From IMG/VR virus record IMGVR_UViG_2698536651_000002, positions 1 through 6,328 of that record: a stretch of 6,328 nt of DNA; one strand, given 5' to 3'. Source of the DNA: a virus (taxonomy: Duplodnaviria > Heunggongvirae > Uroviricota > Caudoviricetes). Within the stretch, counting starts at the first letter, position 1. Every line of letters begins with the position of its first letter. Both the position numbers and the translations under genes were made by a program. Below are positions 1 through 6,328 of this stretch, one piece after another. The notes beneath the pieces are model-generated. The model saw only the letters and a program-made list of their open reading frames with translations, searched no databases and was not told the DNA's origin.

Positions 1-1059
1 CTGACAGCAGATGAAAAAAGCGTGCTGGCGCATAAGGATGAACTGATTCAGGCGCTGACGCTGCTGGATGCAAAACAGCAGGAGCTGCAGAAGCAGACGG
101 CGCTGAATGACCTTAAGAAAAAATCTATTCAGCTTGCCAGCCAGCTGGCGGAAGAGGAACGGACTCTGCGTCAGCAACATGACCTGGATATCGCCACGAC
201 AGGGATGGGGGATAAACAGCGTCAGCGATACCAGGCGCAGTTCAGTCTGCAACAAAAATACCAGCAGCAACTGGAACAGCTGGAGCGTGACAGTAAGCAG
301 AAAGGAACATACGGCACAGATGAATACCGGAATGCTGAGCAGATGCTGACAGACAGTCTTAACCGGCAACTGAATGAAAACAGACGCTACTGGCAGGAAC
401 AGGAACTGATGCAGGCAGACTGGAAAAACGGTGCCATGCGGGCGTTTCAGAATTTTACAGAGAGTGCGGATAACGCGGCAGGTACCGCTGAGCAGATGTT
501 TACAGCGGCATTTAACAGTGCAGGTAATGCACTGGCGACGTTCTGTACCACCGGAAAACTGAACTTCAAATCTTTTACCGCCTCGCTCCTTTCTGATCTG
601 GCAAAAATCATGTCGCAGATGGCCATGATGCAGGCAGTTAAGGGGATTGGTTCGGCGTTTGGCTGGGGGAGTGCAGCAACTGCCAGTGTGACGCCCAATG
701 CTGATGGTGGTGTTTATCAGTCTGCTGATTTGAGTCGCTACAGTGGCACGGTGGTTAACCGTCCTACGTTTTTTGCTTTTGCAAAAGGCGCGGGGGTGAT
801 GGGAGAAGCAGGCCCTGAAGCCATTCTGCCATTGCGTCGTGGTGCTGATGGCAAGCTGGGTGTTGTGGCGGATATTGGTGGTGAAGGTATGGTGATGTTT
901 GCCCCGCAGTACAACATCGAGATCAATAACGATGGTACGAACGGGCAGATAGGTCCGGCTGCCCTGAAGGTGGTTTATGACCTCGGGAAAAAAGCAGCAG
1001 CGGACTTTATGCAACAGCAGTCCCGTGATGGTGGTCAGTTAAGCGGAGCATATCGGTAA
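1..1059 (+). CDS. H: Tail tape measure protein, C-terminal part (5'-partial; reading frame is open from base 1, stop TAA at 1057..1059)
   Basis: Frame-1 ORF open from the window edge (track shows it from the first in-frame ATG at 22). The translation has a Gln/Glu/Lys-rich coiled-coil-like segment (LQKQTALNDLKKK...QQKYQQQLEQLERDSKQK), then a hydrophobic and Gly-rich tail ending ...GQLSGAYR. It sits directly upstream of M-L-K-I-J, as in lambda. Recognised from memory as the gpH C-terminus; not verified by search. Confidence 0.88.
   Translation: MTADEKSVLAHKDELIQALTLLDAKQQELQKQTALNDLKKKSIQLASQLAEEERTLRQQHDLDIATTGMGDKQRQRYQAQFSLQQKYQQQLEQLERDSKQKGTYGTDEYRNAEQMLTDSLNRQLNENRRYWQEQELMQADWKNGAMRAFQNFTESADNAAGTAEQMFTAAFNSAGNALATFCTTGKLNFKSFTASLLSDLAKIMSQMAMMQAVKGIGSAFGWGSAATASVTPNADGGVYQSADLSRYSGTVVNRPTFFAFAKGAGVMGEAGPEAILPLRRGADGKLGVVADIGGEGMVMFAPQYNIEINNDGTNGQIGPAALKVVYDLGKKAAADFMQQQSRDGGQLSGAYR
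1045..1048 (+). promoter_or_regulatory. Shine-Dalgarno (GGAG) for M, embedded in the 3' end of H
   Basis: GGAG 10 nt upstream of ATG 1059, which overlaps the H stop codon. Confidence 0.45.
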
Positions 1060-1388: not shown

Positions 1389-2086
1389 TGCAGGATATAC
1401 AGCAGGAAACACAGAATGAGTGTACAAAATCGGAGCAATCCGCGCAGGTCGAGCTCTGGGAAATCGATCTGACAGAGGTCGGTGGAGAACGTTATTTTTT
1501 CTGTAATGAGCAGAACGAAAAAGGTGAGCCGGTCACCTGGCAGGGGCGACAGTATCAGGCGTATCCCATTCAGGGGAGCGGTTTTGAACTGAACGGCAAG
1601 GGCAGTGCTGCCCGTCCGACACTGACGGTCTCTAACCTGTACGGTACGGTCACCGGAATGGCGGAAGACCTGCAGAGTCTGGTTGGCGGAACGGTGGTCC
1701 GGCGTAAGGTTTACGCCCGTTTTCTGGATGCGGTGAACTTCGCAAACGGAAACAGCGAAGCCGATCCGGAGCAGGAGATTATCAGCCGCTGGCGCATCGA
1801 GCAGTGTAGCAATTTAACAGCGGTAAGTGCCTCCTTTGTACTGTCCACGCCGACGGAAACGGATGGCGCTGTTTTTCCGGGACGTATCATGCTGGCCAAC
1901 ACCTGCACCTGGACCTATCGCGGTGATGAGTGCGGTTATCACGGTCCGGCGGTCGCGGATGAATATGACCAGCCGACGTCCGATATCACGAAGGATAAAT
2001 GCAGCAAATGCCTGAGCGGTTGTAAGTTCCGCAATAACGTCGGCAACTTTGGCGGCTTCCTTTCCATTAACAAACTTTCGCAGTAA
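1388..2086 (+). CDS. L: Minor tail protein L (tail tip assembly; lambda gpL is reported to bind an iron-sulfur cluster), 232 aa
   Basis: ORF of 232 aa (MQDIQQETQNECTKSEQSAQVELWEIDLTEVGGERYFFCNE...), the same length as lambda gpL. C-terminal Cys cluster (NTCTW, DECGYHG, KDKCSKCLSGCKF). ATG overlaps the M stop (TGATG); AGGTGG Shine-Dalgarno at 1375..1380. Confidence 0.92.
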   Translation: MQDIQQETQNECTKSEQSAQVELWEIDLTEVGGERYFFCNEQNEKGEPVTWQGRQYQAYPIQGSGFELNGKGSAARPTLTVSNLYGTVTGMAEDLQSLVGGTVVRRKVYARFLDAVNFANGNSEADPEQEIISRWRIEQCSNLTAVSASFVLSTPTETDGAVFPGRIMLANTCTWTYRGDECGYHGPAVADEYDQPTSDITKDKCSKCLSGCKFRNNVGNFGGFLSINKLSQ

Positions 2087-2091
2087 ATCCC

Positions 2092-2835
2092 ATGACACAG
2101 ACAGAATCAGCGATTCTGGCGCACGCCCGGCGATGTGCGCCAGCGGAGTCGTGCGGCTTCGTGGTAAGCACGCCGGAGGGGGAAAGATATTTCCCCTGCG
2201 TGAATATCTCCGGTGAGCCGGAGGCGTATTTCCGTATGTCGCCGGAAGACTGGCTGCAGGCAGAAATGCAGGGTGAGATTGTGGCGCTGGTCCACAGCCA
2301 CCCCGGTGGTCTGCCCTGGCTGAGTGAGGCTGACAGGCGGCTGCAGGTGCAGAGCGATTTGCCTTGGTGGCTGGTCTGCCGGGGTGAGATTTATAAATTC
2401 CGCTGTGTGCCGCATCTCACCGGGCGGCGCTTTGAGCACGGGGTGACGGACTGTTACACGCTGTTCCGGGATGCTTATCATCTGGCGGGGATTGAGATGC
2501 CGGATTTTCATCGCGAGGATGACTGGTGGCGTAACGGTCAGAATCTCTATCTGGATAATCTGGAGGCCACGGGGCTGTATCAGGTGCCGTTGTCATCAGC
2601 ACAACCGGGCGATGTGCTGTTGTGCTGTTTTGGTTCATCGGTGCCGAATCATGCCGCCATTTACTGTGGTGACGGCGAGCTGCTGCACCATATTCCTGAA
2701 CAACTGAGCAAACGAGAGAGGTATACCGACAAATGGCAGCGACGCACACACTCCCTCTGGCGTCACCGGGCATGGCACGCATCTGCCTTTACGGGGATTT
2801 ACAACGATTTGGTCGCCGCATCGATCTGCGTGTGA
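2092..2835 (+). CDS. K: Tail assembly protein K; predicted JAMM/MPN metallopeptidase domain (N-terminal) plus NlpC/P60-type papain-like domain (C-terminal). Alternative internal start at ATG 2236 would give the 199-aa form.
   Basis: ORF of 247 aa. The JAMM signature H-x-H-x7-S-x2-D is visible as HSHPGGLPWLSEAD, with a candidate upstream Glu in PAESCGFVV. The C-terminal part has Cys/His residues consistent with NlpC/P60 (DCYTLF ... HAAIY ... HH). No Shine-Dalgarno before ATG 2092 (5 nt after the L stop, so probably translationally coupled); GGAGG at 2220..2224 precedes the internal ATG 2236. Confidence 0.85.
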   Translation: MTQTESAILAHARRCAPAESCGFVVSTPEGERYFPCVNISGEPEAYFRMSPEDWLQAEMQGEIVALVHSHPGGLPWLSEADRRLQVQSDLPWWLVCRGEIYKFRCVPHLTGRRFEHGVTDCYTLFRDAYHLAGIEMPDFHREDDWWRNGQNLYLDNLEATGLYQVPLSSAQPGDVLLCCFGSSVPNHAAIYCGDGELLHHIPEQLSKRERYTDKWQRRTHSLWRHRAWHASAFTGIYNDLVAASICV

Positions 2836-3380
2836 AAACGGGAGCCGAAGCCATCCGGGCGCTGGCTATGCAGTTTCCGGCGTTTCGTCAGAAACTGAGC
2901 GACGGCTGGTATCAGGTGCGCATTGCCGGGCGTGATGCAGGCGAAAACGAATTATCAGCTCGTCTTAATGAGCCGCTGGCAAATGGTGCCGTGATCCACA
3001 TCGTGCCGCGTCTGGCGGGAGCTAAAAGTGGCGGTGTGTTTCAGGTGGTGCTGGGGGCGGCGCTGATTGCTGTGGCATGGTGGAACCCTGTGGGCTGGCT
3101 GGGTGCCGCGGCTGTATCGGGCATGTATGCGGCAGGGGCCAGTATGATCCTGGGTGGTGTGGCCCAGATGCTGGCACCGAAAGCCCGGACGCCCACAGCG
3201 ACCAGCACGGATAACGGTAAGCAGAACACCTTTTTTTCCTCGCTGGATAATATGATCGCCCAGGGGAATCCGTTACCGGTACTGTATGGTGAGATGCGTG
3301 TGGGGTCTCGTGTGGTTTCTCAGGAGATCAGCACGGCAGATGAAGGGGACGGTGGTCAGGTTGTGGTGATTGGCCGCTGA
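2733..3380 (+). CDS. I: Tail assembly protein I; N-terminal ubiquitin-like (beta-grasp) domain ending in Gly-Gly, followed by a Gly/Ala-rich hydrophobic segment and a conserved C-terminal region
   Basis: ORF of 215 aa (MAATHTLPLASPGMARICLYGDLQRFGRRIDLRVKTG...HIVPRLAGAKSGG...LPVLYGEMRVGSRVVSQEISTADEGDGGQVVVIGR), recognisably lambda gpI-like at both ends. It starts inside K in a different frame (overlap 2733..2835). An alternative in-frame start is ATG 2772 (MARICLYG...). Confidence 0.85.
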   Translation: MAATHTLPLASPGMARICLYGDLQRFGRRIDLRVKTGAEAIRALAMQFPAFRQKLSDGWYQVRIAGRDAGENELSARLNEPLANGAVIHIVPRLAGAKSGGVFQVVLGAALIAVAWWNPVGWLGAAAVSGMYAAGASMILGGVAQMLAPKARTPTATSTDNGKQNTFFSSLDNMIAQGNPLPVLYGEMRVGSRVVSQEISTADEGDGGQVVVIGR

Positions 3381-3398
3381 TGCAAAATGTTTTATGTG

Positions 3399-3424
3399 AA
3401 ACCGCCTCCGGGCGGTTTTGTCGT
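3399..3424 (+). terminator. Intrinsic-terminator-like hairpin between I and J: 8-bp perfect stem (AAACCGCC / GGCGGTTT), 4-nt loop (TCCG), then a T-rich tract (TTTTGTCGTTT)
   Basis: Seen directly: 3399..3406 aaaccgcc, 3407..3410 tccg, 3411..3418 ggcggttt, followed by tttt g tcg ttt. It lies in the 60-nt I-J intergenic gap, upstream of the J Shine-Dalgarno. Confidence 0.4.
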
Positions 3425-3428
3425 TTAT

Positions 3429-3432
3429 GGAG
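3429..3432 (+). promoter_or_regulatory. Shine-Dalgarno (GGAG) for J
   Basis: GGAG 8 nt upstream of ATG 3441. Confidence 0.55.
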
Positions 3433-3437
3433 CATGA

Positions 3438-6328
<2,891 letters not shown>

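What the first reader, a model, noticed from the sequence alone, without database searches (positions are those of the whole stretch)
2092..3380. K-I pair looks like a phage-encoded ubiquitin-like module: JAMM/MPN + NlpC/P60 protein next to a Ubl-GG protein
Seen in sequence: K carries a complete JAMM motif (HSHPGGLPWLSEAD, with a candidate upstream Glu in PAESCGFVV) and a Cys/His-containing C-terminal half consistent with an NlpC/P60 fold. The overlapping downstream gene I encodes a ~90-residue N-terminal domain ending exactly in ...PRLAGAKSGG (Gly100-Gly101), followed by a hydrophobic segment. Established knowledge: comparative work on prokaryotic antecedents of ubiquitin signalling (Iyer, Burroughs and Aravind) proposed that lambda tail assembly protein I has a ubiquitin-like beta-grasp domain and that K has JAB and NlpC/P60 domains. 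Inference: the JAB domain may cleave I after the Gly-Gly and the NlpC/P60 domain may act on a thioester or isopeptide. As far as I know, the biochemical role of this in tail tip assembly is still not well characterised. This is the most mechanistically interesting part of the window, but it is a known family, not a new system.
Basis: partly seen in the sequence, partly recalled or inferred. Interest (0 to 1): 0.55.

Follow-up and report, generated by a model that had tools for sequence, protein, structure and literature searches.

The report
Lambda tail-tip K protease and I
These are the phage lambda-type tail-tip assembly genes K (a two-headed protease) and I (a structural plug protein with a removable ubiquitin-like cap); the pairing is real and widespread, but it was predicted in 2006 and is now being confirmed experimentally, so it is not new.

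Summary
K (2092-2835, 247 aa) matches Prok-JAB (E 7.6e-14) and NlpC/P60 (E 5.4e-13). It folds with pLDDT 97 into a JAMM domain most like PfJAMM1, AMSH and Rpn11, plus a papain-like domain most like MepS/Spr. Both catalytic sets (E19, H68, H70, S78, D81; C121, H187, H199) are kept in 97-98 of 98 diverse homologues. I (2733-3380, 215 aa) has an N-terminal domain whose model matches only MoaD, SAMP, CysO, Urm1, ubiquitin and related folds. That domain ends at Gly100-Gly101, and a hydrophobic hairpin and the plug domain seen in lambda virions follow it. Across 17 phages only Gly101 is invariant. K and I co-occur in about 1,750 phage genomes in the order L-K-I-J. Virion structures show only the C-terminal part of gpI and no gpK, and a 2025 conference report states that gpK cleaves the Ubl off gpI as an assembly checkpoint. 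There is no E1 or E2, so this is a precursor-processing module, not a conjugation system. The role of the conserved NlpC/P60 site remains open. The standard 199-aa annotation of lambda K drops the JAMM glutamate. Verdict: already known, low to moderate interest.

The parts
2092..2835 (+). Gene K, 247-aa form (tail tip assembly protein K; JAB + NlpC/P60). It starts 6 nt after the L stop.
   Evidence: ORF; Pfam; AF2 pLDDT 97.2 including residues 1-48; 97 diverse homologues align from residue about 4-10; the first 48 codons show third-position-dominant variation in the K frame.
2098..2385 (+). JAB/MPN+ (JAMM) metalloprotease domain, K residues 3-98.
   Evidence: PF14464 E 7.6e-14; PDB 2kks E 3.7e-6; Foldseek PfJAMM1 5ld9/5lda (the SAMP2 complex) at rmsd 2.6 A, plus AMSH, Rpn11 and CSN5; best NCBIfam hit is desampylase, below its cut-off.
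2146..2148 (+). Codon for Glu19, the JAMM catalytic Glu in PAESCGF.
   Evidence: Conserved in 97 of 98 homologues; aligned to the E of 2kks.
2293..2334 (+). JAMM zinc motif H68-S-H70-x7-S78-x2-D81 (HSHPGGLPWLSEAD).
   Evidence: H68 98/98, H70 98/98, S78 92/98 (plus 5 Thr), D81 98/98.
2236..2238 (+). Internal Met49, the start used for the 199-aa K in lambda records; GGAGG lies at 2220-2224.
   Evidence: Lambda imm21 and PhiR47_1 annotations; sequence. Starting here removes Glu19 and the first beta-strands of the JAB domain.
2422..2763 (+). NlpC/P60 (C40, papain-like) peptidase domain, K residues 111-224. Triad codons: C121 at 2452-2454, H187 at 2650-2652, H199 at 2686-2688.
   Evidence: PF00877 E 5.4e-13; alignment to 8idc places H187 and H199 on the catalytic His residues; C121 97/98, H187 97/98, H199 97/98, D120 98/98; Foldseek hits to MepS/Spr, Acd33800 and 4hpe.
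2733..2835 (+). K/I dual-coding overlap (K residues 215-247, including the C-terminal helix 230-245; I residues 1-34).
   Evidence: Diversity is lowest here (pi 0.025). Positions 2733-2771 are almost invariant; 2772-2835 vary only at I-frame third positions, which are K-frame second positions.
2733..3380 (+). Gene I, 215 aa (tail tip assembly / plug protein I). GAGAGG lies 11 nt upstream.
   Evidence: ORF; phmmer to lambda gpI 8iyk E 1.5e-105; sequence.
2772..3035 (+). Ubiquitin-like beta-grasp domain of I, residues 14-101, ending in G100-G101 (3030-3035).
   Evidence: PF06805; AF2 secondary structure beta-beta-alpha-beta-alpha-beta; Foldseek hits to the MoaD-related protein 1v8c (E 6e-4, rmsd 2.4 A), SAMP1, MoaD, CysO, Urm1, NEDD8, SUMO, ubiquitin and ThiS; G101, P92 and K98 conserved.
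3036..3173 (+). Hydrophobic helical hairpin of I, residues 102-147 (VFQVVLGAAL...GGVAQMLAP). This is the predicted new N-terminus after cleavage.
   Evidence: AF2 helices 102-117 and 121-147; described as transmembrane-like H1/H2 in lambda gpI (PMC11101478); the most variable segment (pi 0.199).
3105..3377 (+). C-terminal plug domain of I, residues about 125-215, equivalent to lambda gpI 134-223 resolved in virions.
   Evidence: 9e7m 90-residue chains align to residues 131-214; PMC10721106 and PMC12617516.
1388..2086 (+). Context: gene L (hub protein with 4Fe-4S cluster), directly upstream.
   Evidence: PF05100 E 1.3e-99.
3441..6328 (+). Context: gene J (central tail fibre), N-terminus [15 protein letters not shown]..., runs off the window.

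Best explanation
K and I are the lambda-type tail-tip assembly pair. I is made as a precursor with three parts: an N-terminal ubiquitin-like (MoaD/SAMP-type beta-grasp) domain, a hydrophobic helical hairpin, and a C-terminal plug domain. The Ubl acts as a removable pro-domain. It probably keeps the hydrophobic hairpin soluble and blocks later assembly steps until I has docked on the J/L hub. The JAMM domain of K then binds the Ubl, threads its flexible tail (P92...G96-x-K98-x-x-G101) into the zinc site and hydrolyses the ordinary peptide bond after the invariant Gly101 (GG|VFQ). This releases the Ubl and exposes Val102 as the N-terminus of the mature plug, which packs around the C-terminus of the tape measure. 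K and the freed Ubl leave and are not part of the virion. No conjugation occurs. In this respect the system resembles the processing of ubiquitin-fusion precursors or of SAMP and CysO by JAMM peptidases. Shown here: the domain identities, the intact and conserved catalytic sites, the Ubl fold, the conserved Gly junction, and K-I co-occurrence and synteny. Taken from the literature: the Ubl and K are absent from mature particles, and K has been reported to cleave I. Inferred: the exact scissile bond, the chaperone and checkpoint logic, and that the equally conserved NlpC/P60 Cys-His-His site carries out a second, still unidentified, proteolytic step in tip maturation.
For: Domain calls: Pfam; 2kks, 8idc; desampylase is the best NCBIfam hit. 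Structure: K has pLDDT 97.2 and matches PfJAMM1 with and without SAMP2, AMSH, Rpn11 and CSN5, and also MepS/Spr. The I N-domain matches only MoaD, SAMP1, CysO, Urm1, NEDD8, SUMO, ubiquitin and ThiS. Selection: JAMM residues and the Cys-His-His triad are kept in 97-98 of 98 homologues at 33-58% identity. G101, followed by [LVI][FLM]Q and a hydrophobic stretch, is invariant in 17 phages from 10 or more host genera. Co-distribution: K is in 1767 phage records and I in 1730, with near-identical per-genus counts. All 15 sampled diverse loci are L-K-(inserted genes)-I-J, with both K domains and the I Ubl present. PHROG 35166 is a JAB-I fusion family. Literature: the 2006 prediction (PMC1779556). Only gpI 134/135-223 (or from 101 onward) is seen in lambda virions, and gpK was not detected by MS (PMC10721106, PMC12617516, PMC11101478). 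The single gpI peptide in virion MS covers 9.87% of 223 residues, i.e. 22 residues, which fits only the C-terminal tryptic peptide (my inference). The N-terminus of F-pyocin PA0640 is present in stalled precursors and absent from mature particles, and PA0639 (the K homologue) is absent from particles. A conference report says the Davidson laboratory showed that gpK cleaves the Ubl from gpI only after gpI has joined the tip complex (PMC12908700).
Against: The only statement of direct cleavage by K is a meeting summary; I found no paper or preprint with the data. The scissile bond has not been mapped. Cryo-EM papers call the gpI N-domain 'unresolved' rather than absent, and one speculates that it is a wall hydrolase. 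[quoted passage not shown] The Ubl model has only moderate confidence (pLDDT 60-72, shallow alignment), and sequence-only searches did not link it to Ubls. I could not model the K-I complex, because the tool returns no coordinates or PAE. The explanation gives the strongly conserved NlpC/P60 active site no defined job.
Confidence: 0.8

Rival explanations
1. True ubiquitin-like conjugation. After release, the Ubl-GG of I is attached to a tail protein (or a host protein), with the K NlpC/P60 cysteine forming a thioester or acting as a transamidase or isopeptidase.
For: The Ubl ends in Gly-Gly in the lambda group. The papain-like fold is shared with many DUBs, and the Cys-His-His triad is conserved. 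Iyer et al. raise a link between the papain-like fold and Ubls.
Against: There is no E1-, E2- or adenylating-domain gene in the window; every ORF is H, M, L, K, I or J. The penultimate Gly is not conserved. Virion and F-pyocin structures and MS show no extra Ubl density or N-terminal peptides. The released Ubl has no known acceptor.
Confidence: 0.04
2. Counter-defence. The K DUB-like domains exist mainly to strip bacterial Ubls (the Bil/ISG15-like system) off the central tail fibre, as Hor et al. speculated.
For: The Bil system conjugates a Ubl to the J-type central fibre, and the authors suggest that DUB domains in siphophage tail assembly proteins are an anti-defence measure (bioRxiv 10.1101/2023.09.04.556158).
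Against: SECphi27, the phage against which Bil was shown to work, itself encodes a full JAB+NlpC/P60 K and a Ubl-I, so K does not prevent Bil defence. K is essential for tail assembly in lambda without any Bil system (PMC12617516). K always co-occurs with its own Ubl substrate.
Confidence: 0.08
3. The NlpC/P60 domain of K is a virion-delivered peptidoglycan hydrolase used during genome injection, and the JAB/Ubl pairing is secondary.
For: The closest structural relatives of the domain are cell-wall endopeptidases (MepS/Spr, RipA-type, Acd33800). The wall-cleaving enzyme of lambda is unidentified (PMC11101478). Databases call K a 'cell wall-associated NlpC family hydrolase' or 'C40 peptidase'.
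Against: gpK was not detected in lambda virions by MS and was not resolved in any of the lambda virion cryo-EM studies read here. PA0639 is absent from mature F-pyocin by proteomics. K has no signal peptide or wall-binding module.
Confidence: 0.05
4. The Ubl of I is not removed but stays attached as a flexible, unresolved domain in the virion, and the K JAMM has a different substrate.
For: Cryo-EM papers say only 'unresolved N-terminal domain'. Virion MS coverage of gpI is a single peptide, so absence of the Ubl is not proven in lambda.
Against: The conference report of cleavage. F-pyocin MS distinguishes the precursor (N-terminus present) from the mature particle (N-terminus absent). The tip lumen leaves little room for three 10-kDa domains (inference). 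The invariant Gly sits exactly at the domain boundary.
Confidence: 0.05

Closest known systems
Phage lambda gpK / gpI (tail tip assembly proteins K and I; TAPK/TAPI of Iyer, Burroughs and Aravind 2006)
   Same: Same genes. DNA is about 95% identical to lambda over M..J. I matches lambda gpI (8iyk) at E 1.5e-105. The window K has the same length (247 aa) as the long K ORF of lambda (L001 1231-1974). The gene order H-M-L-K-I-J and the 103-nt K/I overlap are the same.
   Different: The hydrophobic linker of I is 8 residues shorter and diverged (215 aa against 223 aa). Lambda records annotate K as 199 aa from Met49, whereas the evidence here favours the 247-aa form.
F-type pyocin PA0639 / PA0640 (Pseudomonas aeruginosa)
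   Same: PA0640 is a gpI homologue that forms the tip plug; only residues 127-200 are seen. The N-terminal region is present in stalled precursors and absent from mature particles. PA0639, the gpK homologue, is absent from particles. PDB 25vf_9 matches I at E 6.7e-22.
   Different: It is a tailocin, not a phage. Sequence identity is only about 30%. The protease responsible was not identified there, and host proteases can also trim recombinant PA0640.
Archaeal JAMM1 desampylases with SAMP (PfJAMM1-SAMP2, PDB 5lda; HvJAMM1)
   Same: These are the best structural matches for the K JAB domain (TM 0.67-0.69 normalised to the target, rmsd 2.5-2.6 A, 22-25% identity). SAMP1 is among the top matches for the I Ubl. 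In both cases a minimal MPN+ domain acts on a MoaD-like Ubl with a C-terminal Gly.
   Different: SAMPs are free modifiers that are conjugated through an E1 (own knowledge). Here the Ubl is fused in cis to its 'substrate', no E1 exists, and the bond cut is a normal peptide bond. K also carries a second peptidase domain.
Bacterial JAMM processing of sulfur-carrier Ubls (Mec+/CysO in M. tuberculosis; QbsD/QbsE in Pseudomonas). From my own knowledge, not tested here.
   Same: CysO (3dwg_C) is a top structural match of the I Ubl. A JAMM peptidase trims residues or adducts after the C-terminal Gly-Gly of a MoaD-like protein encoded next to it.
   Different: Those systems expose a Gly-Gly for thiocarboxylate chemistry. 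In I the released part that matters is the downstream structural protein.
Eukaryotic ubiquitin-fusion precursors (e.g. Ub-ribosomal protein fusions) processed by DUBs. From my own knowledge.
   Same: An N-terminal Ubl is fused by a normal peptide bond after Gly to a structural protein and is removed by a DUB; the Ubl acts as a transient chaperone.
   Different: The Ubl class differs (ubiquitin proper against MoaD-like), the proteases are unrelated in most cases, and no assembly-checkpoint coupling is known.
Phage T5 baseplate hub protein pb3 (plug domain)
   Same: The plug tripod closing the tube sits at the same position as the gpI C-terminal domain. L + I + the N-terminal part of J together correspond to pb3 (PMC10721106).
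   Different: In T5 the plug is an insertion within one polypeptide. There is no Ubl and no K-type protease.

Membership tests
JAMM/MPN+ metalloprotease (Pfam Prok-JAB PF14464) | Profile match above the curated threshold | tested here: met
   52 bits against a cut-off of 25, E 7.6e-14, residues 3-98.
JAMM/MPN+ metalloprotease (Pfam Prok-JAB PF14464) | Catalytic motif E...H-x-H-x7-S-x2-D | tested here: met
   E19, H68, H70, S78 and D81 are present and conserved in 97, 98, 98, 92 (plus 5 Thr) and 98 of 98 homologues.
JAMM/MPN+ metalloprotease (Pfam Prok-JAB PF14464) | MPN fold | tested here: met
   AF2 pLDDT 97; Foldseek probability 1.00 to PfJAMM1, AMSH, Rpn11, CSN5 and 2kks.
JAMM/MPN+ metalloprotease (Pfam Prok-JAB PF14464) | Zn-dependent cleavage after the C-terminal Gly of a Ubl | not testable with these tools
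   Rests only on the literature: a conference summary.
NlpC/P60 (MEROPS C40, Pfam PF00877) | Profile match above the curated threshold | tested here: met
   49.3 bits against a cut-off of 23, E 5.4e-13, residues 111-224 over the full profile 1-105.
NlpC/P60 (MEROPS C40, Pfam PF00877) | Cys-His-His/polar catalytic triad in the canonical order | tested here: met
   C121 (DCYTL), H187 (NHAAIY) and H199, aligned to 8idc; each conserved in 97 of 98 homologues.
NlpC/P60 (MEROPS C40, Pfam PF00877) | Papain-like alpha+beta fold | tested here: met
   Foldseek hits to MepS/Spr (8xup, 2k1g), Acd33800 (9ubf), 7v6u and 2hbw.
NlpC/P60 (MEROPS C40, Pfam PF00877) | Peptidoglycan (gamma-D-Glu-mDAP or similar) endopeptidase activity | not testable with these tools
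   The substrate is unknown. K is absent from virions, which argues against a role at the cell wall during infection.
Lambda tail assembly protein I (TAPI; Pfam PF06805) | Profile match and homology to lambda gpI over the full length | tested here: met
   82.6 bits against a cut-off of 23.8; 8iyk E 1.5e-105 over residues 1-215.
Lambda tail assembly protein I (TAPI; Pfam PF06805) | N-terminal ThiS/MoaD-like beta-grasp fold | tested here: met
   All of the top 50 Foldseek hits shown are Ubl-superfamily proteins; the best is 1v8c at E 6e-4, rmsd 2.4 A over 84 columns. Caveat: model pLDDT is 60-72, and sequence-only searches found no link.
Lambda tail assembly protein I (TAPI; Pfam PF06805) | Conserved Gly at the end of the Ubl, then a Gly-rich or hydrophobic linker, then the TAPI-C domain | tested here: met
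   G101 is invariant in 17 of 17 (A4) and 41 of 41 (A6) sequences, followed by [LVI][FLM]Q and a hydrophobic stretch.
Lambda tail assembly protein I (TAPI; Pfam PF06805) | Synteny L-K-I-J | tested here: met
   The window and 15 diverse phages.
Ubiquitin-like conjugation system (E1/E2 + Ubl + DUB; e.g. Bil, type II CBASS, SAMP) | E1-like adenylating enzyme (and an E2) encoded with the Ubl | tested here: not met
   Every + strand ORF in the window is H, M, L, K, I or J, with no ThiF/E1 or UBC domain. Antisense ORFs have no significant domain hit.
Ubiquitin-like conjugation system (E1/E2 + Ubl + DUB; e.g. Bil, type II CBASS, SAMP) | Ubl with a free, or minimally extended, C-terminal Gly available for activation | tested here: not met
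   G101 is followed by 114 residues of structural protein in the same polypeptide.

The most novel reading that the evidence does not exclude
The strongly conserved but unassigned NlpC/P60 Cys-His-His site of K may be the unidentified protease that converts the tape measure gpH into gpH*. The H C-terminal region in this window carries NADGG|VYQ (nt 700-720), with the putative cut leaving about 115 C-terminal residues (about 12 kDa, against the roughly 14 kDa reported to be removed). This echoes the I junction AKSGG|VFQ. The motif NA[DK]GG[VA][YW] recurs in tape measures of four other K-bearing phages. PMC12617516 states that both the gpH cleavage site and its catalyst are unknown. If this reading is right, one assembly factor would perform two maturation cuts on the two proteins that pack together in the tip lumen.
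Probability: 0.07. Interest if true: 0.6.

Novelty: already known. Interest (0 to 1): 0.25.

Why it matters
The K-I pair is probably the simplest natural case of a Ubl plus its JAMM protease working without any conjugation machinery. It is used as a timed proteolytic checkpoint in building a virus tail, and it occurs in about 3.5% of sequenced phage genomes (1767 of 50,697 records) and in F-type pyocins. It bears on the prokaryotic origin of ubiquitin/DUB partnerships and on engineering tailocins and lambda-based vectors. For this window, however, it adds only another close lambda relative. The practical points are two. First, the textbook 199-aa gpK annotation removes part of the JAMM domain and has misled later analyses: a 2020 review saw only 'a peptidase domain'. 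Second, the NlpC/P60 active site is as conserved as the JAMM site yet still has no assigned substrate.

Tried and rejected
1. Programmed -1 frameshift producing a K-I fusion across the 103-nt overlap. The database does hold K-I fusions (P0154, P0199, P0023, P0236, P0004, P0132). Five of the six are single-sequence clusters, one cluster has two sequences, and each fusion has a different junction. They are indel or assembly artefacts, so I rejected the idea.

2. Sequence-only links from the I Ubl to ThiS, MoaD or ubiquitin. Phmmer and a 17-sequence profile against the PDB found only gpI homologues. Structure prediction was needed.

3. The search for related loci with the 98-sequence K alignment failed because it had no conserved 7-10-mer. 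With a 14-sequence alignment it returned only relatives at 94-98% identity. I obtained diversity instead from tblastn 'spread' sampling of the phage collection.

The accepted alignment (A6) holds only two clades, hence the moderate pLDDT.

5. I considered modelling K-I docking with a natural fusion protein (P0154) and dropped it, because the tool returns no coordinates or PAE and the contact could not be evaluated.

6. I searched for a paper or preprint with the gpK cleavage data. Only the conference summary turned up.

7. The anti-Bil DUB hypothesis is weakened because the Bil-sensitive phage SECphi27 has intact K and I.

8. Antisense ORFs, RNA families, promoters and terminators in 1900-3600 gave nothing above chance.

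9. A proteomics paper on mEpimmI phages had no information on K in virions.
Full report
WHAT IS THERE

The 6.3-kb window is the distal part of a lambda-type tail operon, all on the + strand:
- C-terminus of tape measure H, 22-1059
- M, 1059-1388
- L, 1388-2086
- K, 2092-2835
- I, 2733-3380
- J, from 3441 to the end of the window

The best DNA matches are E. coli lambdoid phages: mEp460 and PhiR47_1 at 91.5% over the whole window, and lambda at about 95% over M..J. The antisense ORFs under K and I have no significant domain hits. No Rfam family matches, and promoter- and terminator-like sites occur at chance frequency.

CHECK OF THE OBSERVATION

- K contains PAESCGFVV (Glu19) and HSHPGGLPWLSEAD, i.e. 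H68-x-H70-x7-S78-x2-D81.
- I reads ...IVPRLAGAKSGG, with Gly100-Gly101, followed by VFQVVLGAALIAVAWW....
- Pfam gives Prok-JAB on K residues 3-98 (E 7.6e-14), NlpC/P60 on K residues 111-224 (E 5.4e-13) and Lambda_tail_I on I residues 14-97 (E 2.7e-23). All three are well above the curated cut-offs.
- Phmmer links the JAB half to PDB 2kks, and aligns NHAAIYCGDGELLHH to the catalytic His region of an NlpC/P60 protein (8idc).

STRUCTURE

With a 98-sequence alignment, AlphaFold2 folds K into one compact two-domain protein (mean pLDDT 97.2, pTM 0.91), including residues 1-48 and a C-terminal helix at 230-245. Foldseek against the PDB returns two groups of matches:
- For the N-terminal half: Pyrococcus JAMM1, free and bound to the Ubl SAMP2 (rmsd 2.5-2.6 A), plus AMSH, Rpn11 and CSN5.
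- For the C-terminal half: MepS/Spr, a C. difficile autolysin and other NlpC/P60 peptidases.

The I model is poor overall (pLDDT 50), but residues 11-95 reach 60-72 with the order beta-beta-alpha-beta-alpha-beta. All of the top 50 structural neighbours shown are ubiquitin-like beta-grasp proteins. They are led by the Thermus MoaD-related protein 1v8c (E 6e-4, 24% identity, rmsd 2.4 A), SAMP1, MoaD, CysO and Urm1, followed by NEDD8, SUMO, ubiquitin and ThiS. Sequence-only searches could not make this link. The C-terminal 90 residues are the plug domain solved in lambda virions (9e7m, 8iyk).

CONSERVATION AND DISTRIBUTION

An exhaustive HMMER search found 2801 cluster representatives. I aligned 97 full-length homologues at 33-58% identity. 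Conservation out of 98 sequences:

| Site | Residue | Conserved |
|---|---|---|
| JAMM | E19 | 97 |
| JAMM | H68 | 98 |
| JAMM | H70 | 98 |
| JAMM | S78 | 92 (plus 5 Thr) |
| JAMM | D81 | 98 |
| NlpC/P60 | D120 | 98 |
| NlpC/P60 | C121 | 97 |
| NlpC/P60 | H187 | 97 |
| NlpC/P60 | H199 | 97 |

Both active sites are therefore under strong purifying selection.

In the phage collection, K is found in 1767 records (1722 covering at least 80% of it) and I in 1730. The per-genus counts are nearly identical, for example Escherichia 612 against 608 and Klebsiella 454 against 452. Ralstonia (60), Burkholderia (39) and Shigella (40) have the same count for both.

I sampled fifteen diverse phages, with hosts in Mannheimia, Morganella, Burkholderia, Ralstonia, Pseudomonas, Vibrio, Pantoea, Klebsiella, Shigella and E. 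coli, including HK97-like and T1-like phages and Dhillonvirus. All have L-K-I-J, sometimes with inserted genes between K and I. All their K proteins have both domains, and all their I proteins have the Ubl.

In the I alignment only the second Gly (G101) is invariant. Position 100 is G, S, A, Q, R or I. The junction is ...P92..G96.K98..G101 | [LVI][FLM]Q followed by a hydrophobic stretch. 'Gly-Gly' is thus a lambda-group detail, and the family signature is a single terminal Gly, as Iyer et al. described.

WHAT THE LITERATURE ADDS

- Iyer, Burroughs and Aravind (2006) predicted the Ubl in TAPI and JAB + NlpC/P60 in TAPK, and proposed that JAB releases the Ubl at the terminal Gly (PMC1779556).
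- Lambda virion cryo-EM resolves gpI only from residue 134/135 (PMC10721106, PMC12617516). One paper, PMC11101478, describes the closed state (PDB 8IYK/8IYL of the first study) as resolved from 'position 101 onward'.
- gpK is not detected in virions by MS.
- The virion MS table lists one gpI peptide covering 9.87% of the protein, i.e. 22 of 223 residues. The only 22-residue tryptic peptide of lambda gpI is the C-terminal VVSQEISTADEGDGGQVVVIGR (this is my inference).
[quoted passage not shown] I found no paper or preprint with the primary data.

MECHANISM

The best-supported reading is a precursor-processing checkpoint.
1. I is made with a MoaD-like pro-domain.
2. Once I is docked on the J/L hub, the K JAMM domain cuts after Gly101.
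3. The Ubl and K leave.
4. The new hydrophobic N-terminus and the plug domain remain in the tip around the C-terminus of the tape measure.

This is not a conjugation system. No E1 or E2 is encoded, and the Gly is internal to the polypeptide. The step 'K cuts I' rests on the literature. The exact bond, the chaperone role of the Ubl and any function of the NlpC/P60 site are inference. My confidence in the core statement is about 0.8.

RIVALS
- A real Ubl-conjugation role, with NlpC/P60 handling a thioester or isopeptide, lacks any supporting component.
- An anti-Bil deubiquitinase role was proposed by Hor et al.. It is weakened because SECphi27, the Bil-sensitive model phage, has intact K and I.
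- A virion peptidoglycan hydrolase role conflicts with the absence of K from particles.
- The reading 'Ubl retained but disordered' conflicts with the F-pyocin MS and the conference report.

SIDE RESULTS

1. Lambda records annotate K as 199 aa starting at Met49, which is preceded by GGAGG. That start deletes Glu19 and the first strands of the MPN fold. Four lines of evidence favour the 247-aa form:
   - Pfam matches from residue 3.
   - Distant homologues align from residues 4-10.
   - AF2 is confident over residues 1-48.
   - Among 39 distinct close relatives, the first 48 codons vary mainly at third positions in the K frame (0.023 / 0.014 / 0.081), like the rest of K (0.030 / 0.013 / 0.100).
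   A 2020 review that worked from the 199-aa protein reported only 'a peptidase domain'.

2. The 103-nt K/I overlap is genuinely dual-coding and is the least variable segment (pi 0.025). Positions 2733-2771 are almost invariant. Positions 2772-2835 vary only at I-frame third positions, so the I frame dominates there.

3. The K-I fusion proteins in databases have different junctions and come from clusters of one or two sequences, so they are artefacts and not a programmed frameshift.

4. The H C-terminus carries NADGG|VYQ, with the cut leaving about 115 C-terminal residues. This resembles the I junction and is partly conserved in other tape measures. Because the gpH to gpH* site and protease are unknown, this suggests a low-probability but testable job for the NlpC/P60 site.

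VERDICT

The system is already known: it was predicted in 2006, it fits the recent structural work, and it has reportedly been demonstrated biochemically. Interest is 0.25. The residual open question is the substrate of the conserved NlpC/P60 active site.

Noticed in passing
window 2092-2238 (K start at 2092 against internal Met49 at 2236; GGAGG at 2220-2224): Lambda-type records annotate K as 199 aa from Met49, which removes Glu19 and part of the MPN fold. Homologue alignments, Pfam, AF2 and codon-position variation all support the 247-aa form starting 6 nt after the L stop. Whether a short isoform is also made from the internal SD-ATG is open.
   Followed up: yes
window 2733-2835: The 103-nt K/I overlap is dual-coding and the least variable part of the two genes. 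Its 3' two-thirds vary only at I-frame third (K-frame second) positions, so the C-terminal helix of K absorbs the amino-acid changes.
   Followed up: yes
window 700-720 (H C-terminal region, NADGG|VYQ): A Gly-Gly-Val-Tyr-Gln motif, with about 115 residues between the putative cut and the tape-measure C-terminus, resembles the I junction GG|VFQ. NA[DK]GG[VA][YW] recurs in the tape measures of Morganella IME1369_02, mEp390, Over9000 and Pae CF53a, but not in T1-like or Mannheimia phages. The gpH to gpH* cleavage site and protease are unknown in the literature.
   Followed up: partly
window 3036-3140 (I residues 102-136): The hydrophobic linker of I is by far the most variable segment among close relatives (pi 0.199 against 0.03-0.10 elsewhere). 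It is 8 residues shorter than in lambda, which suggests mosaic exchange or relaxed constraint on the putative membrane-inserting helices.
   Followed up: partly
window 3398-3425 (I-J intergenic region): A GC-rich hairpin (AAACCGCC-TCCG-GGCGGTTT) followed by a T-rich tract sits between the I stop and the J start. The simple terminator scan did not flag it, and its function was not examined.
   Followed up: no
L083 3260-3495; L086 3538-3798; L088 3315-3955; L089 3196-3642; L090 3246-4839: In several phages, unrelated genes are inserted between K and I: a lipoprotein in mEp390, an anti-repressor and a KilA-N gene on the opposite strand in Vibrio pVa-7, and small hypothetical genes elsewhere. K-I adjacency and overlap are therefore not obligatory for function.
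   Followed up: partly
database proteins P0154, P0199, P0023, P0236, P0004, P0132 (K-I fusions); P0143, P0155, P0163 (carry K and L Pfam domains, probable L-K fusions); P0050: Public protein sets contain many K-I chimeras, probable L-K chimeras, and one I protein with an internal 37-residue duplication of the Ubl (P0050). The K-I junctions differ from case to case, so these look like indel or assembly artefacts or decaying prophages. PHROG families 28576 and 30 appear to be built partly on such fusions.
   Followed up: partly
L098 789-2097 (phage SECphi27): SECphi27, the model phage whose central fibre is ubiquitin-tagged by the bacterial Bil defence system, carries an intact JAB+NlpC/P60 K and a Ubl-I. 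The K DUB-like domain evidently does not protect it from Bil.
   Followed up: yes
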